Of a DNA stretch of 64,000 bases, positions 34,773 to 55,073 are shown one piece after another. The position numbers and the translations under genes were made by a program. Every line of letters begins with the position of its first letter. The first letter of the stretch is position 1. The DNA is from a virus, in IMG/VR virus record IMGVR_UViG_3300037322_000275, positions 1 through 64,000 of that record; one strand, written 5' to 3'. A model generated the notes under the pieces. It was not told the origin of the DNA. It worked only from the letters and a program-made list of their open reading frames with translations, and did not search any database.

Positions 34773-35858
34773 TTACATAGGTGCTAGCATCTCAGCTTTA
34801 ATTGCTGGATATGATTCATAATCTTTTAATTTAAACATATCTATTCTCAATTCTTTAAAATATTCATCTAGAGTTAAAATTTTCATATTTACAGCATTTG
34901 TTGCTATGTCAAATTCAGGATGAAATTCTAATTTACATTTATTATGTTTATTGACATCTTTATTAAGTTGTTCTTTAATAGCTTCTATATGTGAATCATA
35001 AATATGAACATTAGATAAATCACCAATTAATTCACTAGGAACCATATTAGTTAATTTACCAATTACATTAGCTAATAAACCGTATGATGCAATGTTAAAT
35101 GGTAACCCAAGAAATGTATCAACACTACGCTGATGCCATTTTAAATCAAATGTATACTTAATATCGGTATCTGCTTCTTTTCCCCAATTTCCTGAGTTGT
35201 GAATTCCACTTTTAGAAGAGTTATTAATTTGATATCTTTTTATGTAGTTTAAAGGTCTAGGAATAATCTCAAAAGCCCAATGACAAGGCGGTAAAGCCAT
35301 TTCATCTAATTCAGCAGGATTCCAAGCTGTAACTATATGTCTACGAGACATTGGTTTATCTTTAAGATTCTGAATTAAACTAGATATTTGGTCTAACTTA
35401 ATAGGTAACCATGTTATATTGTTATATAGTATTGGTGCTGACCAACTTTTCCATTGAGCACCATATACGCTGCCTAAATTACCAAATTTTATTTTGTCTA
35501 AATGTTTAACATTATTGTTTTTAATATATTCTATAAATTCTTCTATATTATATACAGGATTATCAGAAGTTTTTAAATACCAATTATAAGCATCTTTATC
35601 CCAAATATGAATATTATTATCTACAAGATATTTAATATTAGTATTACCTTTTAAAAACCAAATTAATTCACCTACAATTCCTTTCCAGTACAATTTTTTA
35701 GTAGTAATAGCTGGAAACCCGTCAGTTTGTAAATTATGCCTAAATTCGTAAGAACTTACTTGTTTGCACATTACATTTCTACTTTCGTCTTTATAATCAT
35801 AACCCTCCTCAAGAATTTTCTCAAGGAGTGTATGATATGTGTAGTCTATTCTAGCCAT
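34773..35858 (-). CDS. thyA: Thymidylate synthase
   Basis: ELIWFLKG, VYGAQW, MALPPCH, QRSVDTFLGLPFNIASY, HIY motifs. Confidence 0.96.
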   Translation of the reverse strand: MARIDYTYHTLLEKILEEGYDYKDESRNVMCKQVSSYEFRHNLQTDGFPAITTKKLYWKGIVGELIWFLKGNTNIKYLVDNNIHIWDKDAYNWYLKTSDNPVYNIEEFIEYIKNNNVKHLDKIKFGNLGSVYGAQWKSWSAPILYNNITWLPIKLDQISSLIQNLKDKPMSRRHIVTAWNPAELDEMALPPCHWAFEIIPRPLNYIKRYQINNSSKSGIHNSGNWGKEADTDIKYTFDLKWHQRSVDTFLGLPFNIASYGLLANVIGKLTNMVPSELIGDLSNVHIYDSHIEAIKEQLNKDVNKHNKCKLEFHPEFDIATNAVNMKILTLDEYFKELRIDMFKLKDYESYPAIKAEMLAPM

Positions 35859-43966: not shown

Positions 43967-44653
43967 TTACCAGATAATTTCTCTAATACCGTCAGATCTT
44001 AATATACTGTTTACTTGATTAAAAATATTGTTTGTATTACAAAGTTCTTTTTCAGTATTTTCAAAAACATAGTGTTTCTTATTGTCAATGTACTTTTTAA
44101 AATGTTCATTACCTTGTTCTAAAAACAAAAATACAATGTTTTCTTTTTCTTCATTAATTGTGTATATAAACTGTCTTACAAAGTTTTTCCAATATTCAGA
44201 ATGATCTTCACCAAATTTCCATGTTAAAGAAGTATTTAGCATTAGAACACCTTGGTTAGCCCACCATTTCATAGTATTGTCAAATTCCTGTGTGTCTTCA
44301 TAAACTGTATCATTTACACAATTTATGATTTTTTTGTTTATGTCAGGAATTATTTGATTTAAATGTACATCAGAAACACCATAAGCTAAACCGTTTGTTA
44401 AATATGTAGGTCTTAAACCAAAACATACAACTTTTAGTTTATCAAAAGGAGTTTTTCTAAAACAATTAAACAACTCTTCTTTCTTTGGATACACATTAAC
44501 ATGATTTTTGTAATATTCATCTATAAAGACAGCAAGATTATTCATATAAGAAGTACAAAGAAGATTTTTAGACAACGGTTTTGCCCAATCTTTCAGCAGT
44601 ACACTGTAATTTGATTTAAATACAGAAGTTTCTAATTTGTGTTCTATTTCCAT
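43967..44653 (-). CDS. Family-1 uracil-DNA glycosylase homolog with degenerate active site
   Basis: VYP...LF..F..TPFDKLKVV, NGLAYG, WANQGVLMLNTSLT; GQDP is replaced by GLRP and HPSP is absent. Confidence 0.85.
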   Translation of the reverse strand: MEIEHKLETSVFKSNYSVLLKDWAKPLSKNLLCTSYMNNLAVFIDEYYKNHVNVYPKKEELFNCFRKTPFDKLKVVCFGLRPTYLTNGLAYGVSDVHLNQIIPDINKKIINCVNDTVYEDTQEFDNTMKWWANQGVLMLNTSLTWKFGEDHSEYWKNFVRQFIYTINEEKENIVFLFLEQGNEHFKKYIDNKKHYVFENTEKELCNTNNIFNQVNSILRSDGIREIIW

Positions 44654-44661
44654 AATTAATA

Positions 44662-46500
44662 TTAAATTGTTTCAGAGTCTAAAGCTAGTGGAGAATCAAC
44701 AAAAAGTGATGCTGCTTGATCTGAAAAACCCATAGAAACTAAAGAAGTTTTTCTGGATTTTTGAGATTTCGCACTACTTTGTATGTAGGACGTGAACTCA
44801 TCACTTTCTAATGGTTCATTAGTATTTAAAGATTGTTTAGGATCATAAATACCTGTAAAAAAGTTATTATCTTTTTTACGAACTTCTGTAGGTGTTTCAT
44901 ATCCTGTAGATTTTTCATAATTTAAACCTATAAATCCAATATAATCAGAACCCTTTGAAGAAATATAATTTGAATAATCTGTTTTAGAATAAAAATCTTT
45001 AGAGTCTTTCCAATTAATAAGTCCTCCATTTTTTATTTTTGATTCATCACCAAGGACAAGTCCATGTTTGTTTTGTGATTCTGTGGAAATTCTTCTGTTC
45101 TGCAAGTATTTAAAAAGTGATTTTCTTAAATAACTTTTTGCAATACCATTAGACAAAGAAATATCTATAATTGAAAATATACCTTTTCTTCCGTCAAAAA
45201 AGTTTTTATCTTCTAAAATCTGATTTTGATATTTTTTTACAAAATTAACTAGAATAGAATTTAACAAAATAAAACTTATAATTTTGTCTATATCATATGT
45301 TGGTGTATGAATTCTAAATTCAATTGTTGTTTTGTTTCCAAAAATTAAAGGAATCAAGTTGTGTATGTGATATCTTGTATGCACATTCCATTTTTGAGAA
45401 CCTTGTGGATCTCTTGGATGAACAGATACATTATCTAAGTTACAACCTACCTCATTAAAACTTTGACCTTCTGACAAATATTGATATAAAACATTAAAGT
45501 TTTGATCAATGTTTGTTGGCGTAATTTGAGTATCTAATTTAGAAACTAAAGAATACGCAGGATAAGGTGCAGAATAGTTCTTGTTTTTTAAACCAAAGTT
45601 ATACTTTTTGTAGATTGGAAAATAAGAAAACATTTCATCTTGTATTTCACAAGTAAACTTAAAAAATGCAAGAATAAATTCCTTTGTTCTTGGTATGTTT
45701 CCTAAATGTAAATGTAAGGAACAAGTGTCATCAAATGTTGTTTTTTCATTTAAGATTTCTAATTGGTCAACAACTGTTTGAAGACCTTTTTCACCTCTTA
45801 ATGGAATTGTAACATATTCAATACCTGAAATAGAACCATCTCTTAAGGGAATTAGTCCTACTCTATCTGTAATTCTTTTAGGTATAAATCCTTTAACTGT
45901 CTCAAATTCTAAACCAAAACTTAAATCTTCTAAAACATTTCCATATTTTTTGATATCTTCTGAAATAACACCATCATACAAGTTGTTATAAATCTCTGAA
46001 TAATGAGAAATAAGACCCTTTGAGTCATAAGGTAAACTTGTCTTATATTCAGATCTTGGTGTTGAAATTCTTCCAAATTCTCTTGCTTGTAATCTAGAAA
46101 TGTGGTAGAAGTTACCATCTGCAAGTCTTTCTCTATAGAAATTATTGTTTTTTAAGGAATCCGCATCAAACAGTAATTTTTGTTCTCCGTTTTCTAACGT
46201 TATCACAGATAGTGTTTCTTCTTGTTTAAAGTAACCTTCAACTAAAGAACCGTCTTCATTCACACAAACAATACCTTTTGTTAAGTGAGGTGTTAAAACG
46301 TCGTAACTGTTGATTGTAAAGTTATAGACAATAGAATCAACACCTAAAATTCGATACTTGTTTTTTACTAAATAACAATCTCCTGAATTTTCAATTAATG
46401 GGTCTCCTACTTTGTAGTAGTTTCCATTAATAAGTCTACAGTCTTGTGCTAATTCAGTATTTCCTAGAGGTGTAATCACTCTCTTTTGTTTATCTTTCAT
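44662..46500 (-). CDS. Putative amidoligase (COOH-NH2 ligase)
   Basis: FGLEFET, DGSISGIEYVT, CSLHLHLG, RY, TIEFR; start moved to MKDKQ. Confidence 0.85.
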   Translation of the reverse strand: MKDKQKRVITPLGNTELAQDCRLINGNYYKVGDPLIENSGDCYLVKNKYRILGVDSIVYNFTINSYDVLTPHLTKGIVCVNEDGSLVEGYFKQEETLSVITLENGEQKLLFDADSLKNNNFYRERLADGNFYHISRLQAREFGRISTPRSEYKTSLPYDSKGLISHYSEIYNNLYDGVISEDIKKYGNVLEDLSFGLEFETVKGFIPKRITDRVGLIPLRDGSISGIEYVTIPLRGEKGLQTVVDQLEILNEKTTFDDTCSLHLHLGNIPRTKEFILAFFKFTCEIQDEMFSYFPIYKKYNFGLKNKNYSAPYPAYSLVSKLDTQITPTNIDQNFNVLYQYLSEGQSFNEVGCNLDNVSVHPRDPQGSQKWNVHTRYHIHNLIPLIFGNKTTIEFRIHTPTYDIDKIISFILLNSILVNFVKKYQNQILEDKNFFDGRKGIFSIIDISLSNGIAKSYLRKSLFKYLQNRRISTESQNKHGLVLGDESKIKNGGLINWKDSKDFYSKTDYSNYISSKGSDYIGFIGLNYEKSTGYETPTEVRKKDNNFFTGIYDPKQSLNTNEPLESDEFTSYIQSSAKSQKSRKTSLVSMGFSDQAASLFVDSPLALDSETI

Positions 46501-46520
46501 ACTTTTTAGTAAGTTTTTTA

Positions 46521-48551
46521 TTATTTTAATATAAGTGACGAAATACAATCTACAATTTGTTCTAGTATAACTATACATTCTTGTGCTTTTTCGTTTTCTC
46601 GGTAATCTTGTAAAGACTTCTTTAAATCTATTATTTCTTGAATAGGCTCTGTTAGAGATTCTCCAATTAATTCCAGTATAAAGTCATCCGTTTCTTTATT
46701 ATTGTTAATCTCAGTACTTCCTGAGTCATGTAAACTTTTTAGGAAAGCTTCATCGTTTTGAGCAAGAACTTCTTTCTTTTCTATTTCATTTTCTTTAACA
46801 GTAATTGTTTCTTCAATTGTCAAAATGTTATTTATTGCTTTTTTTATTATAGGATTTTCTTTAGCAAAACTAATTGGAAGTTGAATCACACTTGCTTCTT
46901 TCTTTATAAAAGGAAATTTAACATCTTCTCTGATTACAATTTTGGTAAGTATACCTTTTTCAATAGAATATATTTTTTCACCACCTAAATAACAAACACC
47001 ACCATTTAATGTGTTTGCAGGTTCACCATTAAACAAGATTTTAGATTCTGCACTTGTCTTGTCATTACCTTTGGTAATGTTAATAACAGGATGTTTTGAA
47101 ACATAAGAAAGTTCTCTAAAACTTAAATACTCACCAGCTTTTAAAATTGCTTTTTTGTGATGCATTACAGAATAATCAATTGCAGATTTCATCATAACAC
47201 CTTCAACAAAATAAAAATATGCAGGATTCTTAGATCCATTTTTGTAAGGAATAAAGTCTGTACTTTCTGTTTTTACAGCATTAAATGAGTTTTTTTCTGC
47301 ATTAAAGAATAAACCTTTGTACCATTCAATTTCTTTATCTGCATTAGATATTGTTTGAGAAATGTGTTTAAAACCAAAGTTTTTAATGTAAGTGTAAATT
47401 CCATTTATACTGTGTCCATTTGAATAGTATCTAAATTTATTAAAGTAAATACGTGAACCATAATCTGAAGTATCTTTTATTGTTTTTTCGTTGTGAATAT
47501 TCAAGTCATTTTCAGATCTTAAAGAAGGAAAGTTTTGAACGTATTCGTTTCTTTTGTTTGCTCTAGCATTGTTGTAATTAACAGAATCATTGTAACCATC
47601 GTTATCATAAAATCTTTCATCACAATGACTGAAGTTTTGATTTAAATTTGTAGGTGCCTTATAATTAGCATACGTTTGATTTTGTGTTATTTTTTCTCTA
47701 CTAATTTTCCAAGTCTGTGCTTCTTTAAAATTACCATCAGTAACACAATAAACAACATTGTTTTCAATCTGAAATGAATTTTTATCATCAGCACCAATTG
47801 CTTGTAAACTATCTAAAAGTGAAGAAACAAACATGTTGTTTTTAGACTTTAAATAAACACACAAAGGTCTTTCTAGCTCTACTTTAGAATGCATGTAATC
47901 GTATTCCTTTGAAGCACCTGAAAATAAGTAAATTTTATTAGGTGCTGCAGTATAAGACCACACTAATGCTGCAGTTCCAACGTAGTCACTTAACACTCTA
48001 AAGTTTTGTTCTTTGTAAAGAATTTCAAGTAATACTTCACTATCTATTTTATCTCTTGTACTAACAGGAGTGCTGTAGTTGTCTATTTCCTTTAACTCTA
48101 TATTATACTTTTCAGCAAGTTCTTTATGATTCTTTAAAGTTCCATTATGTACACCTACAAATGCATATCCTCTATTGTGTTCCAGTTCACCAAAACCAAA
48201 GGGATGTGCATTATTTAAAGATATCGCATGTCCTGCACTTGCTTGTCTTGTATGACCTATAATGGTTGGAAAGTGTTTAGGTTTTAAATTTCTGTTTTTT
48301 ATAAAATCTGTATAAAGTTTATCTTGGTTTACACCATGATGTATTTCACCATCAAAAGTCACACCACATGAATTTTTACCTCGTTCTACATTATATATTC
48401 CTAGAATATTGAATTCAGAAGTAGATATTGAACTTGGCAATTTTGTTGCTTGTGCAAAAATTCCACAGTTTAACGTTAAATGTCTTGTTTTTGAAAACAA
48501 GTTTATCAAGATTTGTAAGAATGCAAATATTATTATTCCAAGTATTATCAT
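46521..48551 (-). CDS. Class II (Ntn) glutamine amidotransferase with hydrophobic leader
   Basis: CGIF at residue 29, RG..SCG, GHTRQAS, NAHPF, HNGTL, DSE. Confidence 0.88.
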   Translation of the reverse strand: MIILGIIIFAFLQILINLFSKTRHLTLNCGIFAQATKLPSSISTSEFNILGIYNVERGKNSCGVTFDGEIHHGVNQDKLYTDFIKNRNLKPKHFPTIIGHTRQASAGHAISLNNAHPFGFGELEHNRGYAFVGVHNGTLKNHKELAEKYNIELKEIDNYSTPVSTRDKIDSEVLLEILYKEQNFRVLSDYVGTAALVWSYTAAPNKIYLFSGASKEYDYMHSKVELERPLCVYLKSKNNMFVSSLLDSLQAIGADDKNSFQIENNVVYCVTDGNFKEAQTWKISREKITQNQTYANYKAPTNLNQNFSHCDERFYDNDGYNDSVNYNNARANKRNEYVQNFPSLRSENDLNIHNEKTIKDTSDYGSRIYFNKFRYYSNGHSINGIYTYIKNFGFKHISQTISNADKEIEWYKGLFFNAEKNSFNAVKTESTDFIPYKNGSKNPAYFYFVEGVMMKSAIDYSVMHHKKAILKAGEYLSFRELSYVSKHPVINITKGNDKTSAESKILFNGEPANTLNGGVCYLGGEKIYSIEKGILTKIVIREDVKFPFIKKEASVIQLPISFAKENPIIKKAINNILTIEETITVKENEIEKKEVLAQNDEAFLKSLHDSGSTEINNNKETDDFILELIGESLTEPIQEIIDLKKSLQDYRENEKAQECIVILEQIVDCISSLILK

Positions 48552-48573
48552 TGTTTTTTATTTTTATTTATTT

Positions 48574-49374
48574 TTATACTAATTCTGCAACTTTTGAAAG
48601 AGAAATTAAACTCAATAATTTAGTAGCTAACTCTCTATTGTTTGTGTTAATAGCTTCTACAATTTGATCTGCATACTGACTAGCAATATCTTTTACTTTA
48701 CCTGAATTAACTAATTCAATAGCTTCTAACGTAGAGTAATAAGCCCACGTAAGTAATTCATCATTTACAATCCAGAAGTTACTTAAAACACGGTATTCAA
48801 CACCAAAGTTTGTAAATCTAAAACAACCTGCTTTACCATACATTTCTTTTCTTCTGACATCACTATCTAAAAGAACAGATTGTAAACCTAAAACAATATC
48901 CATTGCTTTAATAAGTTCTTCTTGAACTTCCTCTGTAGGATCATCCCAACCTATTGCAATATGTCCACCTGCACTTCTTAAATTTAAAGAAGCATCTCCT
49001 GCGGGATTAACACTGTATGACCAAACATCAAAGTCAGGCTCACAACCAATTGCTTTTGCTTGATCTGAATCAAGTTGTTTGTCAGAAAGTATTGCAGATG
49101 CTGAAAAGTTTAGTTTACAGCCAATACCTGTAACAAATACATCTAAATAATCTTTTACAAAATTATGTTCTTTAATCCATTGTTGTAGACTATTACAAGG
49201 TGGAATATTATATTCTATTAAAACATTGTCTTCCTGTACTGCATGACCGAGATTTGTAATTTTACGAGGTTTATATTTTGTACCACCAATCAATCCTACA
49301 GAAGAGATAATTTCTCCATCTTTTTCTAAAAACATTTCTGGATCAGAACCTAAAGTTATATTTTTTATTTTCAT
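48574..49374 (-). CDS. phiEco32-like COOH-NH2 ligase type 2
   Basis: LGSDPEMF, IGGTK..P, QEDNV..EYN, GCEPDF, RSAGGHI, YGKAGCFR, GVEYRVLSNFW. Confidence 0.9.
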   Translation of the reverse strand: MKIKNITLGSDPEMFLEKDGEIISSVGLIGGTKYKPRKITNLGHAVQEDNVLIEYNIPPCNSLQQWIKEHNFVKDYLDVFVTGIGCKLNFSASAILSDKQLDSDQAKAIGCEPDFDVWSYSVNPAGDASLNLRSAGGHIAIGWDDPTEEVQEELIKAMDIVLGLQSVLLDSDVRRKEMYGKAGCFRFTNFGVEYRVLSNFWIVNDELLTWAYYSTLEAIELVNSGKVKDIASQYADQIVEAINTNNRELATKLLSLISLSKVAELV

Positions 49375-49381
49375 TTTTGAG

Positions 49382-50239
49382 TTACTTTTTATTAATTAAA
49401 TATTCTTTTACTAAAGATAAACACATATCTTTTGTTTTTTGAGGACAGTTAGGATATTCAGGGTGACCTTGAATACATAATGCTTTTGTATTAGGATAAT
49501 ATACAATTTCACATTCTAAAAAATCTGCAGATCTCTTTATTTCTTCATCATTTCCATTTAGATATGTTGAACTGTTAAAATACTTAGAATGAGCAATAAT
49601 TTTGTAGTTTAATTGTGACATTTCAAAGGGAAACATCATTTGATGATGTGTTGAAGTTATTTCATAACTCTTTCCTTTTTGGTCTTCTATTTCATGGTTT
49701 CTACCGTGACCTGTAACGTGTTGGATCAACTTACCACCAGAATAAACTGTTAAAAATTGAGAACCTCTACATATTCCTAGTTTTGGTACGTTATAGTAAT
49801 TATTCAATATTGATTCTTCAAGATTATCTCTTGTTTTGTTACAACTTGTATATTTACCTTTATTTTCACCATAAATTTCAGTAGAAACATCTTCACCACC
49901 TGTAAACAAAACTAAATCTACTTTTTCTGAATTTATCTCACCATGTTTTAGAACTGTAATGTCAAAACATTCAGACAACCATTTTATTTCTTCTTCTGCA
50001 GAATTGTTGTTTGCAACTAAAATGTTTAAAGCTATCTTTTTTTTATCTACAGGATTTTCATGTTCTTCATCAAAACCGTTTTCCACAATATATTGTGCTT
50101 TTTCTTTATGCCCAATACCAGGAATTTTTTCATAATCTTGTGCAGAAATACTATGATTAATGTAATTTGCAATTTGTTCTTTATCGTTTTGAAATGCTTC
50201 CTTTATAGAGCAAAGAAACATTTTTAAATTATCTTCCAT
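49382..50239 (-). CDS. Class I GATase / peptidase C26 (gamma-glutamyl hydrolase-like)
   Basis: TGGEDV, GICRGSQ, STHHQMM, QGHPE. Confidence 0.88.
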   Translation of the reverse strand: MEDNLKMFLCSIKEAFQNDKEQIANYINHSISAQDYEKIPGIGHKEKAQYIVENGFDEEHENPVDKKKIALNILVANNNSAEEEIKWLSECFDITVLKHGEINSEKVDLVLFTGGEDVSTEIYGENKGKYTSCNKTRDNLEESILNNYYNVPKLGICRGSQFLTVYSGGKLIQHVTGHGRNHEIEDQKGKSYEITSTHHQMMFPFEMSQLNYKIIAHSKYFNSSTYLNGNDEEIKRSADFLECEIVYYPNTKALCIQGHPEYPNCPQKTKDMCLSLVKEYLINKK

Positions 50240-50240
50240 T

Positions 50241-50603
50241 TTATCTTTTATTTTTTATTATACACATTACTCTTTTACTTCTGTTTGTACTTATATATGC
50301 TTGTTTCAACAAAAAATCATTCTTATCAAAACAGTTTTCAATAGTTTCCAGATATTTTTGACAAAATTCAATTACAAAATTTCTGTTTTTACCAATAACT
50401 TTAGTTATTTCTCTAAATTGTTCAAGTATTTTTTCTCTGTCTTCTAAACTAAACAAAGTTTCAATTCTACCTATTGTACAGTGTTGACAGTTGTAAAAAG
50501 GAGATTCACTAACTAACAAAGCACCATATTTATTTGAGTTCCATGTTCTTGGAAAGGTAGCATTTATTAAAATAAAGTCTTCTTGTTTAATAACATTATC
50601 CAT
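50241..50603 (-). CDS. Hypothetical protein in the ligase operon
   Basis: 120 aa; PFYNCQHC and YISTN motifs. Confidence 0.6.
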   Translation of the reverse strand: MDNVIKQEDFILINATFPRTWNSNKYGALLVSESPFYNCQHCTIGRIETLFSLEDREKILEQFREITKVIGKNRNFVIEFCQKYLETIENCFDKNDFLLKQAYISTNRSKRVMCIIKNKR

Positions 50604-51444
50604 TTATTTTACGTTTAATAATTTTAGGAATTTCTTCAATATATTTTTTAGCACATACAGACAATTCTCCACTACCATTATCCATAGATGAAGCACTATT
50701 ACATTCTAGTAATATAAAATCTTGATATTCTCTTTTATCACCATTTTTATCTATAGGTGATTGAACTTTTACATCAAAAGAAAGTAAATCAGCACCTATT
50801 GCTACTAAGGCATTTACACAATTTGCAACAATATCATCCCAACTATTTGGTTTGTAAAATTCAACAGAATCTTCTAAAAACCACACACAAATATCATCGT
50901 GTCTTCTCCACTTTTGGTCTTCAGGTACATCTTTTTTTAATGCTTTTCTACAAGTGTAAAAACAACCATCTTCTGTGATGTGTAATCTGAATTCGTGACC
51001 ATAGTTAAAAAACTTTTCAAAGATGTAATTATTTACATTTTTACCAGTTTTCCACTGTTGAAATTCTTCTATAGATTTAATTAATGTGTTACCTCTACCT
51101 TTAGAACCAAAGTGAGATTTTGCAACAATTGGAAATTCTGGAAGATTGTTTTCTTCAGCTGTTAAGTCACTTCCAGAAAGCCACATTGCTGTCTTAATAC
51201 CTGCTTCTGTAAACTTCTTTTTCATCAGTAATTTAGAAGCTGAATTCTTAATTGATTCAACCGTGTTAATTTCTACACGGTTACCTCCATTTGCTATTGT
51301 GTCTCCACATTCTGTTGACGAGCCAAGTCTTATTACAGAACGAACTGAAGACAATTCAATATTTTTTGATTTCAATCTAAGACAATCGTGTGAAGGATGT
51401 CTTGACAAGACTAATGGTCTAAATAAAGTGAGTTTCTTTTTCAA
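50596..51444 (-). CDS. ATP-grasp peptide ligase (RimK/YheC-like)
   Basis: KLLMK, FPIVAK..GSKGRG, EFRLH, FDV, LLECNSA. Confidence 0.87.
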   Translation of the reverse strand: MKKKLTLFRPLVLSRHPSHDCLRLKSKNIELSSVRSVIRLGSSTECGDTIANGGNRVEINTVESIKNSASKLLMKKKFTEAGIKTAMWLSGSDLTAEENNLPEFPIVAKSHFGSKGRGNTLIKSIEEFQQWKTGKNVNNYIFEKFFNYGHEFRLHITEDGCFYTCRKALKKDVPEDQKWRRHDDICVWFLEDSVEFYKPNSWDDIVANCVNALVAIGADLLSFDVKVQSPIDKNGDKREYQDFILLECNSASSMDNGSGELSVCAKKYIEEIPKIIKRKING

Positions 51445-51445
51445 T

Positions 51446-52135
51446 TTAGTTGTTTTTTAAAGTTAAAAGATAGTGGATACAGGTTACTGAAAATTTGTCA
51501 TAAATTTCCTCAACGTGCCACTGTGTTGTGATTGCAGGGTAATTTGGTAAATAGGATAAAGCTTCAATTTCTTGAGTATATTCTTTTACTTTAACATCTT
51601 TTGGTGCATAATAACCAAGTACAACAGCATTTTCAGGAACTGAAGCAACTGTTTGATGGTGAATACTGTTTACACTAAAAGTTTGATTTGATAATTCAGG
51701 TATTTCAAACACATTGTTTGTGCAATGTATTTTGTGAACAAGATCTTTCCTAGAAGAAGTATTTTGTTCGTGATGCATATCTTGTTTTATTTTAGCACCA
51801 AAATATACAGCTAATGATTGATGACCTCGACAAGTTCCCCAAATTGGGGTTCTTTGTGCAATGTACTTTGGTAAAAGAACTTGATCAAATCTTTCTCTGT
51901 ACATACATGGTGCACCAGTACTAAAGTTAATGTCTTCACCTGGTTCCAAGTATCTCCACGGTGCAACATCTGGACCACCTGGCAATACCAACAAATCTAA
52001 ATCTCTGACTTCTTTATCAAATGGAGTTATCAATATAACTTCACCAAAGTAACTAAAGAAATTTACATAAGGTAATGTAATTCCAAAACTATTTCCACCT
52101 GTTAATACGTGTCCTACGATTCCTATTTTTTTCAT
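51446..52135 (-). CDS. Peptidase C26 / gamma-glutamyl-GABA hydrolase-like GATase
   Basis: PGGPDV, GTCRGHQ, VNSIHHQ, QWHVE. Confidence 0.88.
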   Translation of the reverse strand: MKKIGIVGHVLTGGNSFGITLPYVNFFSYFGEVILITPFDKEVRDLDLLVLPGGPDVAPWRYLEPGEDINFSTGAPCMYRERFDQVLLPKYIAQRTPIWGTCRGHQSLAVYFGAKIKQDMHHEQNTSSRKDLVHKIHCTNNVFEIPELSNQTFSVNSIHHQTVASVPENAVVLGYYAPKDVKVKEYTQEIEALSYLPNYPAITTQWHVEEIYDKFSVTCIHYLLTLKNN

Positions 52136-52151
52136 CTTTTTTGTATTTTTA

Positions 52152-52322
52152 TTATTTTTTATTTATAATTTTATCTTGCTCTGTTAAAGAAATACCACTA
52201 AGTTTATTAGACAGTAACCCACACGTTACACACCAAGTTACACCAAATTCATTATCTCTTAATTTGTGTTTACCTTTATCACATTGAGATCTTCGTAACC
52301 AGTATATTTCTCTTGTTAGCAT
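52152..52322 (-). CDS. 56-aa zinc-finger protein (not in ORF track)
   Basis: MLTREIYWLRRSQCDKGKH...WCVTCG: C-x4-H...CxxC. Confidence 0.65.
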   Translation of the reverse strand: MLTREIYWLRRSQCDKGKHKLRDNEFGVTWCVTCGLLSNKLSGISLTEQDKIINKK

Positions 52323-52384
52323 ATTTTTATTATTTTTAATTGTATTGTACAGCTTTACCTTATTTCTGTAGAATGTTGTCTTTA

Positions 52385-52873
52385 TTAGTCAAATAAAGTA
52401 CATTTTTTATTTTCCCACCAGAACAACAACATTCCTTCGTTTTTTTTGTTAAATTTTTCTACGTAATACTCAGGAGTAAATATGGCATCATCTTGAACGT
52501 ATAAAGAAGCAAATGTAAAGTTTGTAACACTAAAATCTACAAGAGTATCGTATAACGTCTTAAAATTTCTGCCTCTAAGTACACCACTATCAATAAAAAT
52601 GTAATGTGTATCTTTTTGTAAATCAAAGACAAAATCTTTACAATAACTTGGATATTCTTTTTCAAAAGGAGTATTGGGAAAGGGTATATCAAAATTAATC
52701 ATTGTTAAAGGATTATCAAAATATGCATGAATTACTTGTTGCGAAATAATAGACGAATAATCTGGACTACAATTTACAACTATTGTATTTCTAGTTACTA
52801 TAGGTTTTAGCCACTCTATTAATTCTTTAATATCTCTTTTTTCTTTTTTTTGATTTATTTTAAAGTATTTCAT
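52385..52873 (-). CDS. Phosphoribosyltransferase-like protein
   Basis: YIFIDSGVLRGRN PRPP-loop variant; FASLY, PEYY, FWWE tail. Confidence 0.65.
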   Translation of the reverse strand: MKYFKINQKKEKRDIKELIEWLKPIVTRNTIVVNCSPDYSSIISQQVIHAYFDNPLTMINFDIPFPNTPFEKEYPSYCKDFVFDLQKDTHYIFIDSGVLRGRNFKTLYDTLVDFSVTNFTFASLYVQDDAIFTPEYYVEKFNKKNEGMLLFWWENKKCTLFD

Positions 52874-52885
52874 AGTTTTAGTTAT

Positions 52886-53290
52886 TTAATTATTACTAAG
52901 ACTTCGGTATCGTGTTTTCAAATCTCTAAATTCTTTCCAATCTCCAGATTCTACTAATTGAGACGCGGGTATTTCATCTACATATACATAAGTAGATGCT
53001 TCACCATAAGGTGTGTTAATTTTAATTTTGTCATAAAATGTGGCAGGTCTATCTTGAGAATAACCTTCTAGACCATCTATTCGTGAAGCTTCTAAAGCAT
53101 CTACTTCATAGACTTCCATAACTACAGGTGTTGTACCTTCCTGTTTTAATCCTGGATAGCCTCCTAAAGAATATAAGGAATACTCAGGTTCTGTTGTGAA
53201 GGTTCCTAAGAATTTAGCATGTGTTAAATAATGATCATTTCCCATGTCTTTTCTAAGTGAGCCATAAACACTAACTAATCTTTTTGTCAT
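52886..53290 (-). CDS. Gamma-glutamylcyclotransferase (AIG2-like)
   Basis: VYGSLRK, YPGL, EVYEV, IDGLEGY, SGDW. Confidence 0.9.
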   Translation of the reverse strand: MTKRLVSVYGSLRKDMGNDHYLTHAKFLGTFTTEPEYSLYSLGGYPGLKQEGTTPVVMEVYEVDALEASRIDGLEGYSQDRPATFYDKIKINTPYGEASTYVYVDEIPASQLVESGDWKEFRDLKTRYRSLSNN

Positions 53291-53301
53291 TTTTTTTATA
53301 T

Positions 53302-53904
53302 TTAAGTTGTTATATTCTTTTTTGAAAGTATATCTGTGTAATGTTCACCAAGAGTTGTTTTTTTTTCAGTAATTGTCTGTAAAAAATCAACCCAATCGCC
53401 ATCTCTAACTAAAACGTCAGACTTAGTAATTGTACCTTCCCAAAAATAAATAAAAATTTCACCAAAAGGTGATCCTACACAGTGTCTTGTAAAGTAGTTG
53501 GTTTCAGGAAATATGTTACCTTCATCAAATCCATTAAATAAATCTAAAGTTTCTAGAACACTTTGTGTAACTGAAAATACTTCAACTAAAATAGAATGAT
53601 CACCTTTAACTAAAGCTGAAATCATATCTATATCAATTTTATACAACGAATATTCAGGTTCTGTGTAATAAGAACCTACAAAAAGAGTATCCATTCCTTT
53701 TCTTGAAATGTCTCGGTGTTCAACAGTTGATTTTCTATAGTCACCATAGAAACCTACTAAAAATCTTTTTTCCATGTTATTATTTGTTGGTTGTTTTAAT
53801 TGTCTTTTTTCTTCTCTTTTTTTAAGTCTATTTTGTGTTTTGGCTTTCGCCATTTCACTGTACTTTTCTTTGTTTTTAGTTTTTGCTCTTTTACTTCTTC
53901 CCAT
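53302..53904 (-). CDS. GGCT/AIG2-like paralog, probably inactive, with basic N-terminal extension
   Basis: FYGDYRK, TEPEYSLY, VEVF, LDLFNG (catalytic E replaced by N), DGDW; start moved to MGRSKR. Confidence 0.75.
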   Translation of the reverse strand: MGRSKRAKTKNKEKYSEMAKAKTQNRLKKREEKRQLKQPTNNNMEKRFLVGFYGDYRKSTVEHRDISRKGMDTLFVGSYYTEPEYSLYKIDIDMISALVKGDHSILVEVFSVTQSVLETLDLFNGFDEGNIFPETNYFTRHCVGSPFGEIFIYFWEGTITKSDVLVRDGDWVDFLQTITEKKTTLGEHYTDILSKKNITT

Positions 53905-53905
53905 T

Positions 53906-54940
53906 TTAAAAAGGTAATAATGTTTCGTATAATAATATTTGTTTTGCTGCATCTTTACCAAAGTTTTTTACTAGATCTGAAGGATCTTTTGACTGATATG
54001 TTGTTGGAATAAAACAATCAACAAGTCCAAAATCTTTAGAAATTTTATCTGCAAACTTTCTTCCCCAGTTAATTTCGGCATCAAAATCATTGTCATATAG
54101 TAATGAAATATCTTTAAAACGATCTTTCAACTGATCAAAAACATGTCTTTTTGGTAAAATGTTTTCACATTGTAATGCTACAGAAGGTAATCCTAATAAA
54201 CTATCGATAACCATAACATCTTTTAATGACTTAGTAATTACTAAATCTGCTCCTTGTTGTGGAAGTTGTTCCCAACCTTGCCATACAGAACTGTCATGAT
54301 TAGTTATCCATTTAAATTTTTCATTAAAAGGTTGATATATTTTGTATGTTTCAACTTTGTCTTTAATTTCTATAAAAACGTAGGCATGCTTATCTGCAAG
54401 ATATGGTGTGTCATTTATAAAAAAGTAATCTATTGCTTCTACTCTATATTTTTCAAGAGTTTTTTTACTTATTTCAAAACTTTCCCAAAATAAAACATCA
54501 TGTACTTGCCACTTGCGATTTCTTTTTTGAATCTTGTAACTTACTGACTTTGCAATTAAATCTGTTCTATTTAGTTTAGAAAAATTGTTGTTTAAAAGTT
54601 TTGTTTTTTCCATTTTTTTTAGAACAAAAAATTCTTCTAACTCAAAATCTACACCAATTTTACTCAATGCTTCCCAATAAGTTAAACTGAATTTCATTTG
54701 TACAAACTTTACAAAGTCTCCACCACCTAATTTAAAGTCGTTAAAACACACTTCATTTCCTTCTCCAATAAAGAAACCAAAAGAAGGAGTTCCTTCATTT
54801 CTAAAAGGAGAAATATTTGGTTTACCACCAATACTAATATCAAAATCAACATATTTTCTGTATATATCAATATCTTGATAATGTTGTAATATTCCTTTTT
54901 TGGAAATCATTTCCTTTTCTACATTTAAATCTATTTTCAT
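53906..54940 (-). CDS. crAss-type DNA primase (TOPRIM)
   Basis: SPFR.E..PSF, KIYQP, VITKSLKDVM, YDND, KDPSD. Confidence 0.85.
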   Translation of the reverse strand: MKIDLNVEKEMISKKGILQHYQDIDIYRKYVDFDISIGGKPNISPFRNEGTPSFGFFIGEGNEVCFNDFKLGGGDFVKFVQMKFSLTYWEALSKIGVDFELEEFFVLKKMEKTKLLNNNFSKLNRTDLIAKSVSYKIQKRNRKWQVHDVLFWESFEISKKTLEKYRVEAIDYFFINDTPYLADKHAYVFIEIKDKVETYKIYQPFNEKFKWITNHDSSVWQGWEQLPQQGADLVITKSLKDVMVIDSLLGLPSVALQCENILPKRHVFDQLKDRFKDISLLYDNDFDAEINWGRKFADKISKDFGLVDCFIPTTYQSKDPSDLVKNFGKDAAKQILLYETLLPF

Positions 54941-54980
54941 ATTAAACTTTTCATAATTTATTTAACTTTAGTTAATATTG

Positions 54981-55073
54981 ATGTCGAGACAGGATTCGAA
55001 CCTGTACGAGAATAAACCATTCCTTTTATTTCTCTATCTGTTAATTAGCGTCTACCAATTCCGCCACTCGACA
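54981..55073 (-). tRNA. tRNA-like RNA (Leu-type D arm, long variable arm, no canonical anticodon arm)
   Basis: 7-bp acceptor TGTCGAG/CTCGACA; D arm GCGGAATTGGTAGACGC; T arm ACAGG-TTCGAAT-CCTGT. Confidence 0.8.

What the first reader, a model, noticed from the sequence alone, without database searches (positions are those of the whole stretch)
44662..53904. Expanded 9.2-kb non-ribosomal peptide-ligase / gamma-glutamyl operon
Seen: eleven contiguous minus-strand genes encoding an amidoligase, an Ntn amidotransferase, a COOH-NH2 ligase type 2, two C26 GATases with intact Cys-His-Glu, an ATP-grasp ligase, a PRTase-like protein, two GGCT/AIG2 proteins, a Zn-finger and one unknown. Known: a core of these families forms the phiEco32-type phage operon, predicted computationally to make a peptide or cell-envelope modification; I know of no identified product. 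Inference: three ligase writers plus gamma-glutamyl erasers or amide donors suggest a reversible glutamylation/peptidylation system, or a small-molecule pathway, acting in superinfection exclusion or anti-defence. The second C26, second GGCT and PRTase suggest a more elaborate product that may be linked to a nucleotide or ribose.
Basis: partly seen in the sequence, partly recalled or inferred. Interest (0 to 1): 0.82.

Follow-up and report, generated by a model that had tools for sequence, protein, structure and literature searches.

The report
Expanded phage amide-ligase gene cassette
A crAss-like phage carries an enlarged version of a gene cluster known since 2009 from many phages (three amide-bond ligases plus enzymes that cut gamma-glutamyl bonds); its product is still unknown, and the "nucleotide-linked" extra gene turns out to be an unrelated hitch-hiker.

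Summary
Eleven tightly packed minus-strand genes at 44662-53904 encode the families named. Both C26 proteins keep the Cys-His-Glu triad, and the 162-aa protein has a type I phosphoribosyltransferase (PRTase) fold.

The window is the first 64 kb of a 93-kb crAss-like phage. The cassette lies in its replication module, between the primase and a UDG-like gene.

I compared 82 viral contigs that hold the COOH-NH2 ligase.
- Nearly universal core: C26, COOH-NH2 ligase, Amidoligase_2, Ntn amidotransferase and ATP-grasp.
- crAss-like lineage: adds one or two GGCT genes.
- Twelve relatives share the full two-C26, two-GGCT layout.
- The second GGCT has lost its catalytic Glu in all of them and carries a Lys/Arg-rich tail.

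The PRTase-fold gene and the 56-aa Zn-finger ORF are in no relative. PRTase homologues elsewhere never sit beside cassette genes, so the nucleotide-linked reading loses its main support.

The nearest characterised relatives of the cleaving enzymes (PuuD/SpuA, GGACT, the PurF glutaminase domain) all cut gamma-glutamyl-N bonds. The ATP-grasp ligase is closest to RimK.

My best reading, at moderate confidence, is a phage-specific cytoplasmic gamma-glutamyl pathway acting on a small amine or peptide. This is a new variant of the known phiEco32-type cassette. The product is not identified.

The parts
44662..46500 (-). Amidoligase_2 (glutamine-synthetase-like amide ligase), 612 aa from Met27. The ORF call from 46578 gives 638 aa. 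The roughly 200-aa N-terminal extension and the low-complexity C-tail are specific to the crAss-like clade.
   Evidence: PF12224 at 23 bits against a cut-off of 22. phrog_2443 at 1.9e-30. Invariant G196 E198 E200 D221 S223 H263 H265 Y377 N381 E394 R396 in 28 homologues. No solved relative by profile search.
46521..48551 (-). Class II (Ntn) glutamine amidotransferase, 676 aa. It has a 28-aa hydrophobic leader, then Cys29, a PurF-like glutaminase domain, a clade-specific beta-rich C-domain (about 350-560) and an acidic helical tail.
   Evidence: PF13522 at 35.8 bits against 27. Profile search matches PurF structures at 3e-08 over the N-domain only. C29 is invariant and the leader is present in 6 of 10 aligned relatives. 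The C-domain model has pLDDT 88 with no clear fold match. There are 234 representative clusters, nearly all 560-720-aa proteins in which the domain begins near residue 300-400; the shorter ones look like fragments.
48574..49374 (-). phiEco32-type COOH-NH2 ligase type 2 (GCS2-like), 266 aa. This is the marker gene of the cassette.
   Evidence: PF14395 at 31.2 bits against 25. phrog_3815 at 1.9e-75. 314 phage records hold a homologue. Only 39 loci were found in 185,579 species genomes, nearly all on MAG contigs.
49382..50239 (-). C26/class I amidotransferase-like thiol hydrolase 'a', 285 aa, directly upstream of the COOH-NH2 ligase.
   Evidence: PF07722 at 1.2e-15. Triad C157/H259/E261 invariant. 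Adjacent to the ligase in 74 of 82 loci. Nearest solved relatives are Lin1909 (3fij), the 7d4r amidotransferase and PuuD.
50241..50603 (-). Unknown 120-aa protein. It is a clade-restricted accessory member, always placed between the ATP-grasp gene and a C26 gene.
   Evidence: No Pfam or PHROG hit. Homologues in 11 related loci at the same position. The Atlas search gave no usable lead.
50596..51444 (-). RimK-like ATP-grasp amide ligase, 282 aa.
   Evidence: phrog_2599 at 1.6e-17. Profile search matches RimK / alpha-L-glutamate ligase structures at 8e-10 to 3e-09. Invariant K71 E151 R153 H155 K167 D224 E247, and N249 nearly invariant.
51446..52135 (-). C26/class I amidotransferase-like thiol hydrolase 'b', 229 aa. 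It is a second paralogue found in many crAss-like relatives, including all 12 with the full layout.
   Evidence: PF07722 at 1.3e-22. C102/H207/E209 align with the triad of copy 'a'. A C26 gene lies next to the ATP-grasp gene in those 12 loci and in several others.
52152..52322 (-). 56-aa ORF with a C-x4-H...C-x2-C motif. It is an orphan and probably not part of the system.
   Evidence: No family hit. No homologue in the 82 related loci or beside PRTase homologues.
52385..52873 (-). Type I PRTase-fold protein, 162 aa, with a divergent PRPP loop (I-D-S-G-V-L-R-G-R-N). It is an independently mobile phage accessory gene inserted at a variable spot of the cassette.
   Evidence: phrog_29004 at 4e-11. 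Model pLDDT 94.8. Foldseek matches 1vdm at E 2e-08. Absent from all related cassettes. 20 homologous loci lack cassette genes, and 14 of them sit beside a gene family that in the one locus scanned (L034) is T4-type baseplate gp25, mostly followed by a gp6-like gene.
52886..53290 (-). GGCT/AIG2 (GGACT-like) gamma-glutamyl cyclotransferase, 134 aa, with catalytic motifs intact.
   Evidence: PF06094 at 3.5e-18. YGSLR and LEGY are conserved in all tail-less copies.
53302..53904 (-). GGCT-fold paralogue, 200 aa, without the catalytic Glu and with a Lys/Arg-rich N-terminal tail of about 50 aa. It is a conserved pseudo-enzyme.
   Evidence: PF06094 at 1.8e-06. YGSL reads YGDY and LEGY reads LFNGF here. 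The Glu is lost in all 12 relatives that have two copies. Single-copy tailed forms that keep the Glu exist in L044, L049 and L054.

Best explanation
This is a lineage-specific, enlarged version of the phage-restricted phiEco32-type amide-ligase cassette. It is expressed with the replication genes of a crAss-like phage.

Inferred mechanism:
1. Three ATP-dependent carboxylate-amine ligases form amide bonds around glutamate. They are GS-like Amidoligase_2, the GCS2-like COOH-NH2 ligase and a RimK-like ATP-grasp enzyme.
2. Four enzymes cleave gamma-glutamyl-N bonds. They are two PuuD/SpuA-like C26 hydrolases, one GGACT-like cyclotransferase and one PurF-like Ntn glutaminase.
3. These cleaving enzymes either supply nitrogen or strip a temporary gamma-glutamyl group from an amine.

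The net effect would be synthesis or remodelling of a small cytoplasmic amine or peptide conjugate, with glutamate acting as carrier or protecting group. The logic resembles the Puu/Pau polyamine pathway.

The Glu-less GGCT paralogue with a basic tail would bind rather than cleave. The PRTase-fold gene and the Zn-finger ORF are unrelated insertions.

What is shown: gene content, conserved catalytic residues, co-occurrence and order, virus restriction of the marker ligase, and family-level similarities. What is inferred: substrate, product and biological role.
For: Family assignments and intact catalytic residues.

Co-occurrence in 82 viral loci:
- C26 in about 77 loci, ATP-grasp 78, amidoligase 77, Ntn amidotransferase 77.
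- C26 lies directly upstream of the COOH-NH2 ligase in 74.
- The amidoligase and the Ntn amidotransferase are adjacent in nearly all.
- About 33 crAss-like loci place the cassette after the primase.
- Twelve share the two-GGCT, two-C26 layout.

Nearest characterised relatives are gamma-glutamyl-N bond enzymes:
- C26 profile against Lin1909 7e-22, the 7d4r amidotransferase 2e-14 and PuuD 2e-11.
- Top NCBIfam model for both C26 proteins is gamma-glutamyl-CDP-amidate hydrolase, far below its cut-off.
- GGACT family at 3.5e-18.
- PurF glutaminase domain at 3e-08.
- RimK at 8e-10.

The marker ligase is essentially virus-restricted. There are 314 phage records and 252 confirmed stretches in IMG/VR. 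Only 39 loci were found in 185,579 species genomes, nearly all on MAG contigs.

Apart from the amidotransferase leader, I saw nothing resembling an export signal on reading the eleven translations; no signal-peptide predictor was run.
Against: - No substrate, product or phenotype is known for any member (papers read).
- The COOH-NH2 ligase and the amidoligase have no solved or characterised close relative. Calling their products gamma-glutamyl is an extrapolation from superfamily.
- The RimK-like ligase and the Lys-rich pseudo-GGCT fit a protein target equally well.
- The hydrophobic leader on the amidotransferase could point to a membrane-associated (envelope precursor) substrate.
Confidence: 0.45

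Rival explanations
1. Peptide tagging of a protein. The RimK-like and GS-like ligases add glutamate or short peptides to a host or phage protein. The C26 and GGCT enzymes trim or recycle the tag. The Glu-less GGCT with a Lys-rich tail is a reader, or is itself a substrate.
For: Best solved relatives of the ATP-grasp ligase are ribosomal protein S6-glutamate ligases. From my own knowledge, GGACT-type enzymes act on epsilon-(gamma-glutamyl)-lysine. The pseudo-GGCT with 14-22 Lys/Arg residues in its tail is conserved.
Against: No candidate target with an acidic C-terminus is encoded in the cassette. C26 relatives (PuuD, 7d4r, Lin1909) act on small molecules. No tag-like small ORF is conserved across loci.
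Confidence: 0.2
2. Envelope modification. The ligases rebuild or alter the peptidoglycan stem peptide or its lipid-linked precursor, to block superinfection or to recycle wall material. This is the idea in the literature since 2009.
For: It is stated as a hypothesis in papers read. D-Ala-D-Ala ligases appear among weaker ATP-grasp matches. A conserved hydrophobic leader on the amidotransferase occurs in several lineages.
Against: Pfam found no Mur-ligase, transpeptidase or flippase domain in the eleven cassette proteins, and apart from that leader I saw no export-type signal on reading the translations (no predictor was run). The cassette sits in the early replication module next to the primase, both here and in phiEco32. 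The nearest hydrolase relatives are cytoplasmic amine-pathway enzymes.
Confidence: 0.15
3. Nucleotide or DNA modification. The pathway builds an amino-acid or amide decoration on a nucleotide or base. It would use the PurF-like amidotransferase, and in this phage also the PRTase-fold protein.
For: The cassette lies between the primase and a UDG-like gene. The glutaminase domain is PurF-like. The PRTase fold is confirmed. Basic tails occur on GGCT copies. The top NCBIfam model for C26 is a nucleotide-amidate hydrolase, though weak.
Against: The PRTase-fold gene is absent from every related cassette and never travels with cassette genes. The thymidylate synthase is a bona fide ThyA (236 bits against a cut-off of 108). 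No base-exchange, hydroxymethylase, kinase or glycosyltransferase gene was seen in the roughly 30 proteins of this stretch that I scanned; the structural half of the window and the last 29 kb of the genome were not scanned.
Confidence: 0.1
4. Auxiliary nitrogen or amino-acid metabolism. The genes boost host glutamate, glutamine or glutathione-type metabolism during infection.
For: This was proposed for a Planctomycetes phage carrying the same families. The gene set superficially mirrors the gamma-glutamyl cycle.
Against: The marker ligase is almost absent from cellular genomes, so this is not a borrowed host pathway. The evidence in that paper is growth stimulation only, with no enzyme assay.
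Confidence: 0.1

Closest known systems
phiEco32-type amidoligase cassette (Iyer, Abhiman, Burroughs and Aravind 2009, Mol Biosyst; present in phiEco32, LUZ24/PaP3-like, RIO-1 and other podoviruses)
   Same: It shares the same five families: COOH-NH2 ligase type 2, Amidoligase_2, Ntn amidotransferase, RimK-like ATP-grasp and GGCT. C26 is also present in most viral loci. The cassette lies next to primase/helicase in the replication region.
   Different: The gene order is rearranged. This clade has two C26 genes and two GGCT genes (one a pseudo-enzyme with a basic tail), an extra 120-aa family, a clade-specific C-domain and hydrophobic leader on the amidotransferase, and a 200-aa N-extension on the amidoligase. 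My C26 profile found no C26 in phiEco32.
Uncultured crAss-like phage cr108_1 (MT774385; Steigviridae, Pipoluvirus rarus)
   Same: It is the closest annotated record. The order primase, cassette, UDG, endonuclease, exonuclease is syntenic. ATP-grasp, C26, COOH-NH2 ligase, Ntn amidotransferase and amidoligase are all present.
   Different: No GGCT and no second C26 were detected. It has two paralogous unknown proteins (335 and 300 aa) instead. Its amidotransferase is shorter (492 aa), starts MCG and has no tail. Identity is only 26-43%.
Gamma-glutamylation pathways for amines (E. coli PuuA/PuuD; P. aeruginosa PauA/SpuA)
   Same: A GS-superfamily ligase combined with a C26 hydrolase. The C26 proteins here are closest to PuuD-type structures.
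   Different: There are no oxidase or dehydrogenase steps. Two further ligases, an Ntn amidotransferase and a GGCT are added. The ligases are not orthologues of PuuA/PauA, and no solved relative was found.
Gamma-glutamyl protecting-group chemistry in butirosin biosynthesis (BtrJ ATP-grasp ligase and BtrG cyclotransferase). Recalled from my own knowledge, not checked here.
   Same: An ATP-grasp ligase paired with an AIG2/GGCT-fold enzyme that removes a gamma-glutamyl group as 5-oxoproline.
   Different: There is no carrier protein or aminoglycoside genes. Homology to BtrJ/BtrG was not tested.
RimK (ribosomal protein S6 L-glutamate ligase)
   Same: It is the best solved relative of the ATP-grasp ligase (E 8e-10 to 3e-09).
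   Different: The score lies far below the NCBIfam RimK family cut-off (20.6 against 143). The substrate is unknown.
MurT/GatD lipid II amidation complex
   Same: It pairs a glutamine amidotransferase-type subunit with an ATP-dependent ligase, as the conserved C26 / COOH-NH2 ligase adjacency might.
   Different: No Mur-ligase domain is present. The C26 proteins are closer to stand-alone hydrolases than to synthase-coupled subunits.

Membership tests
phiEco32-type phage amidoligase cassette | COOH-NH2 ligase type 2 (PF14395) | tested here: met
   31.2 bits against a cut-off of 25. phrog_3815 at 1.9e-75.
phiEco32-type phage amidoligase cassette | Amidoligase_2 (PF12224) adjacent to a class II (Ntn) amidotransferase | tested here: met
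   PF12224 at 23 bits against 22 and PF13522 at 35.8 against 27. The genes are adjacent here and in nearly all of 82 loci.
phiEco32-type phage amidoligase cassette | RimK-like ATP-grasp ligase in the same gene string | tested here: met
   Pfam ATP-grasp is below its cut-off (18.3 against 27), but phrog_2599 gives 1.6e-17 and the profile matches RimK structures at 8e-10. Present in about 78 of 82 loci.
phiEco32-type phage amidoligase cassette | GGCT/AIG2 and/or class I amidotransferase-like thiol hydrolase | tested here: met
   PF06094 at 3.5e-18 and PF07722 at 1.2e-15 and 1.3e-22.
phiEco32-type phage amidoligase cassette | Located in a phage genome among replication genes | tested here: met
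   The record is a 93-kb virus. The flanks are the primase and a UDG-like gene. phiEco32 has the cassette next to primase/helicase.
Class II (Ntn) glutamine amidotransferase, active form | Catalytic Cys as the free N-terminal residue | not testable with these tools
   The Cys is residue 29, behind a 28-aa hydrophobic leader. Many homologues start MCG. Whether the leader is cleaved needs protein mass measurement.
Class I amidotransferase / peptidase C26 | Cys-His-Glu triad | tested here: met
   C157/H259/E261 are invariant in 24 sequences. They align with C102/H207/E209 in the second copy.
Gamma-glutamyl cyclotransferase (GGCT/GGACT), active enzyme: copy at 52886-53290 | YGSL motif and catalytic Glu | tested here: met
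   YGSLR and LEGY are present and conserved.
Gamma-glutamyl cyclotransferase (GGCT/GGACT), active enzyme: copy at 53302-53904 | YGSL motif and catalytic Glu | tested here: not met
   YGDY and LFNGF stand at those positions. The Glu is absent in all 12 relatives with two copies.
Type I phosphoribosyltransferase (162-aa protein) | PRTase core fold | tested here: met
   Model pLDDT 94.8. Foldseek matches 1vdm at E 2e-08, TM 0.65-0.78.
Type I phosphoribosyltransferase (162-aa protein) | Canonical PRPP loop (acidic pair followed by T-G-x-T) | tested here: inconclusive
   The loop reads I-D-S-G-V-L-R-G-R-N. D95, S96, R100, G101 and N103 are invariant in 18 homologues. The profile match to 1vdm covers this region only at E 1.5.
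Peptidoglycan amidation/ligation systems (Mur ligases, MurT/GatD) | Mur-ligase domain or export signals | tested here: not met
   No such Pfam hit in any of the eleven proteins. Export signals were judged only by reading the translations.

The most novel reading that the evidence does not exclude
The cassette is a virus-invented pathway that uses glutamate as a carrier or protecting group to make, or to unload onto a polyanion such as DNA, an unknown amine-type metabolite (for example a modified polyamine). The basic-tailed GGCT copies would tether the last step, or in their Glu-less form a reader, to nucleic acid. That would be a new class of phage-made small molecule, present in hundreds of phages including therapy candidates.
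Probability: 0.25. Interest if true: 0.75.

Novelty: new variant of a known kind. Interest (0 to 1): 0.4.

Why it matters
The product of the phiEco32-type cassette has been unknown since its computational description in 2009. Yet the marker ligase occurs in at least 314 sequenced phages of Pseudomonas, Escherichia, Vibrio and others, and in hundreds of metagenomic viral contigs.

This work adds four things:
- A sub-lineage of crAss-like phages carries a stable, enlarged form of the cassette.
- The universal core is separated from the clade-specific additions and from unrelated insertions.
- The marker ligase is shown to be virus-restricted.
- All recognisable relatives point to gamma-glutamyl-N bond chemistry.

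This narrows what to assay, namely amines and amino acids with glutamate. It also removes a misleading lead (the PRTase). It does not identify the product, and the phage is uncultured, so the open question is no more directly testable here than in LUZ24 or phiEco32.

Tried and rejected
- **Complex prediction.** The C26 'a' protein with the COOH-NH2 ligase gave no verdict. It says nothing either way.
- **Megablast of the cassette against phage records.** No match.
- **Amidotransferase C-domain.**
  - The word-based homologue search found only 2 proteins.
  - Foldseek gave nothing at E up to 0.001.
  - VIA-align gave Z below 5, and only for the terminal helix.
  - The Atlas gave TM below 0.4.
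  - The fold is therefore unassigned, not shown to be new.
- **Profile searches against solved structures.** None for the COOH-NH2 ligase or the amidoligase.
- **Atlas search with the 120-aa protein.** Scores were below the useful range.
- **Rfam search of inserts that split cassette genes in relatives.** No intron family found.
- **Promoter and terminator scan.** Not above shuffles. The sigma-70 model is also not suited to this kind of phage.
- **Idea rejected: the PRTase-fold gene and the Zn-finger ORF travel as a pair.** There is no Zn-finger homologue next to PRTase homologues.
- **Idea rejected: thymidine hypermodification.** The thymidylate synthase passes the ThyA equivalog cut-off.

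Full report
**What is there.** The window is the first 64 kb of a 93,081-bp IMG/VR virus record. Between 44662 and 53904 there are eleven consecutive minus-strand ORFs. Pfam and PHROGs assign them, in order of transcription, as follows:
1. a GGCT-fold protein of 200 aa
2. a GGCT of 134 aa
3. a 162-aa protein (phrog_29004, unknown function)
4. a 56-aa ORF with a Cys/His motif
5. a C26 protein of 229 aa
6. a RimK-like ATP-grasp ligase
7. an unknown 120-aa protein
8. a C26 protein of 285 aa
9. the phiEco32-type COOH-NH2 ligase
10. a class II (Ntn) amidotransferase of 676 aa
11. an Amidoligase_2 protein

Gaps between genes are -8 to 22 nt, apart from 62 nt before the 56-aa ORF. The same tight packing continues into the primase upstream (53906-54940) and the UDG-like gene downstream (43967-44653). 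The cassette is therefore a stretch of the replication-module transcription unit rather than a self-contained operon. Promoter-like and terminator-like sites are not enriched. The amidoligase more plausibly starts at Met27 (46500).

**Which phage.** The best annotated match of the COOH-NH2 ligase is the crAss-like phage cr108_1 (Crassvirales, Steigviridae) at 43% identity. Its record shows the same order: primase, cassette, UDG, endonuclease, small ORF, PD-(D/E)XK exonuclease. The neighbouring genes here fit that picture. They include a ThyA thymidylate synthase, ribonucleotide reductase, helicases, RusA, DnaB and a DNA polymerase.

**Conservation.** Two scans of IMG/VR with the ligase gave 82 loci. 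I built family profiles in the script box and mapped them.
- C26, ATP-grasp, amidoligase and Ntn amidotransferase each occur in about 77-78 of the 82 loci. Most absences are contig ends.
- C26 lies directly upstream of the ligase in 74 loci.
- The amidoligase and the amidotransferase are adjacent in nearly all loci.
- About 40 podovirus-sized contigs have the order C26, ligase, amidoligase, amidotransferase, ATP-grasp.
- phiEco32 itself has ligase, amidoligase, a 676-aa amidotransferase, ATP-grasp and GGCT, then primase/helicase.
- About 33 crAss-like loci have primase, GGCT, (GGCT), (C26), ATP-grasp, (120-aa protein), C26, ligase, amidotransferase, amidoligase, usually followed by the UDG-like gene.
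- Twelve of these share the full two-GGCT, two-C26 layout of the window. The 120-aa family occurs in 11.

The second C26 and second GGCT are therefore real, conserved parts of a clade-specific enlarged cassette. They are not a peculiarity of this genome.

**What does not belong.** The 162-aa protein and the 56-aa ORF have no counterpart in any of the 82 loci, including the closest relative L036 at 71% ligase identity.

The same position holds different genes in different relatives. Examples are an RNA ligase in L010, an ATP-grasp_3/Ter-type ligase in L007, small unknown families elsewhere, and a LAGLIDADG endonuclease inside a split ligase gene in L013. It is an insertion hot spot.

The 162-aa protein does have a type I PRTase fold. 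The model has pLDDT 94.8, and Foldseek matches purine PRTase 1vdm at E 2e-08 with TM 0.65-0.78. Its PRPP loop is divergent. It has 69 homologues in metagenomes. In 20 viral loci holding one, no cassette gene lies within 10 kb. In 14 of them it sits next to a conserved gene pair that, in the one locus scanned (L034), is T4-type baseplate gp25 and gp6. It is an independently mobile accessory gene. The reading 'product linked to a nucleotide or ribose' loses its main support.

**State of the enzymes.**
- The C26 triad is invariant and present in both copies.
- The ligases keep invariant acidic, His and Arg positions across 24-28 diverse homologues.
- The 134-aa GGCT keeps YGSLR and LEGY.
- The 200-aa paralogue has YGDY and LFNGF. 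All 12 two-copy relatives likewise lack the Glu, and all carry a Lys/Arg-rich N-terminal tail of 38-71 residues.
- Three single-copy lineages (L044, L049, L054) have a tailed GGCT that keeps the Glu. The tail is therefore older than the loss of catalysis.
- The amidotransferase has its Cys at residue 29 after a hydrophobic leader. That leader is conserved in most crAss-like relatives and in two other lineages, while many homologues start MCG.
- The amidotransferase C-terminal domain models confidently (pLDDT 88) but found no fold match. Among 234 representative clusters, nearly all are 560-720-aa proteins in which the domain begins near residue 300-400.

**What the chemistry looks like.** Profile searches against solved structures gave these results:
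- C26: Lin1909 (7e-22), the 7d4r 'probable glutamine amidotransferase' (2e-14) and PuuD (2e-11). All score ahead of synthase-coupled amidotransferase subunits.
- ATP-grasp: RimK / alpha-L-glutamate ligases.
- Amidotransferase N-domain: PurF.

In NCBIfam the top model for both C26 proteins is gamma-glutamyl-CDP-amidate hydrolase, far below its cut-off. The GGCT matches the GGACT family.

Every recognisable cleaving enzyme thus belongs to a family that breaks a gamma-glutamyl-N bond. The ligases belong to superfamilies whose known members make glutamyl amides.

The marker ligase is almost confined to viruses. It occurs in 314 phage records and 252 confirmed IMG/VR stretches. Only 39 loci were found in representative genomes of 185,579 species, nearly all on MAG contigs of phage-like size.

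**Interpretation.** The best-supported reading (0.45) is a phage-specific cytoplasmic pathway. It would build or remodel a small amine or peptide conjugate, with glutamate as carrier or protecting group.

The rivals are:
- protein tagging (0.2)
- envelope-precursor modification, the older literature hypothesis (0.15)
- nucleotide or DNA modification (0.1)
- a nitrogen 'auxiliary metabolism' role (0.1)

None of the papers I read reports an experimental product. One paper notes a yeast two-hybrid hit between LUZ24 gp9 and the host gamma-glutamylpolyamine synthetase PauA2. LUZ24 is listed among the cassette-bearing phages in the paper read. The authors did not confirm the hit. It is a weak pointer towards polyamines.

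**Verdict.** This is a new variant of a known, still uncharacterised phage cassette. It is of moderate interest, chiefly because it defines the core, the clade-specific additions and the impostors, and so sharpens which experiments to run.

Noticed in passing
window 48465-48551 (minus strand); relatives L003, L005, L006, L010, L013, L036, L044, L047, L055-L059, L079: A hydrophobic leader of 22-28 aa precedes the catalytic Cys of the Ntn amidotransferase. It is conserved in most crAss-like relatives and in two other lineages, while many homologues start MCG. It suggests a cleavable, possibly membrane-tethering, propeptide.
   Followed up: partly
window 53302-53904; L044 4906-5463, L049 6927-7514, L054 6721-7272: Lys/Arg-rich N-terminal tails (14-22 basic residues) occur on GGCT copies next to the primase. 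Two-copy phages have lost the catalytic Glu in the tailed copy. Three single-copy lineages keep it.
   Followed up: partly
L013 8939-10000; L007 6744-7778; L036 5697-6653; L012 8472-9464: In relatives, cassette genes (the COOH-NH2 ligase, C26 'b' twice, C26 'a') are split by inserts of about 1 kb. The L013 insert holds a LAGLIDADG endonuclease ORF in another frame. The host frame contains stops, so the inserts are not inteins. No Rfam intron family matched.
   Followed up: partly
L010 6582-7580; L007 3816-4613; L003 5754-6239: The stretch between the primase and the ATP-grasp gene is a hot spot for accessory genes in relatives. Examples are an RNA ligase, an extra ATP-grasp_3/'Ter-operon' type ligase and a weak GNAT-like protein.
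   Followed up: partly
window 54980-55073 (minus strand): ARAGORN calls a 94-nt tRNA-Leu (anticodon CAG) between the primase and the next gene.
   Followed up: partly
window 43967-44653 (minus strand): The UDG-like protein scores well below all NCBIfam uracil-DNA glycosylase cut-offs (best 109 against 162). This fits a divergent or inactive form.
   Followed up: partly
window 34773-35858 (minus strand): The thymidylate synthase is 361 aa and matches ThyA models in two or three stretches, which suggests an internal insertion. It passes the ThyA equivalog cut-off.
   Followed up: no
L022-L035 (for example L034 10001-12971): Distant homologues of the 162-aa PRTase-fold protein lie directly upstream of a conserved gene pair that in L034 is T4-type baseplate gp25 and gp6. 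This is an unexplained structural-module context for a PRTase-fold protein.
   Followed up: partly
L002 9445-11364 (cr108_1): Two paralogous unknown proteins (335 and 300 aa, no Pfam hit) occupy the place where other crAss-like cassettes have GGCT and C26 genes.
   Followed up: no
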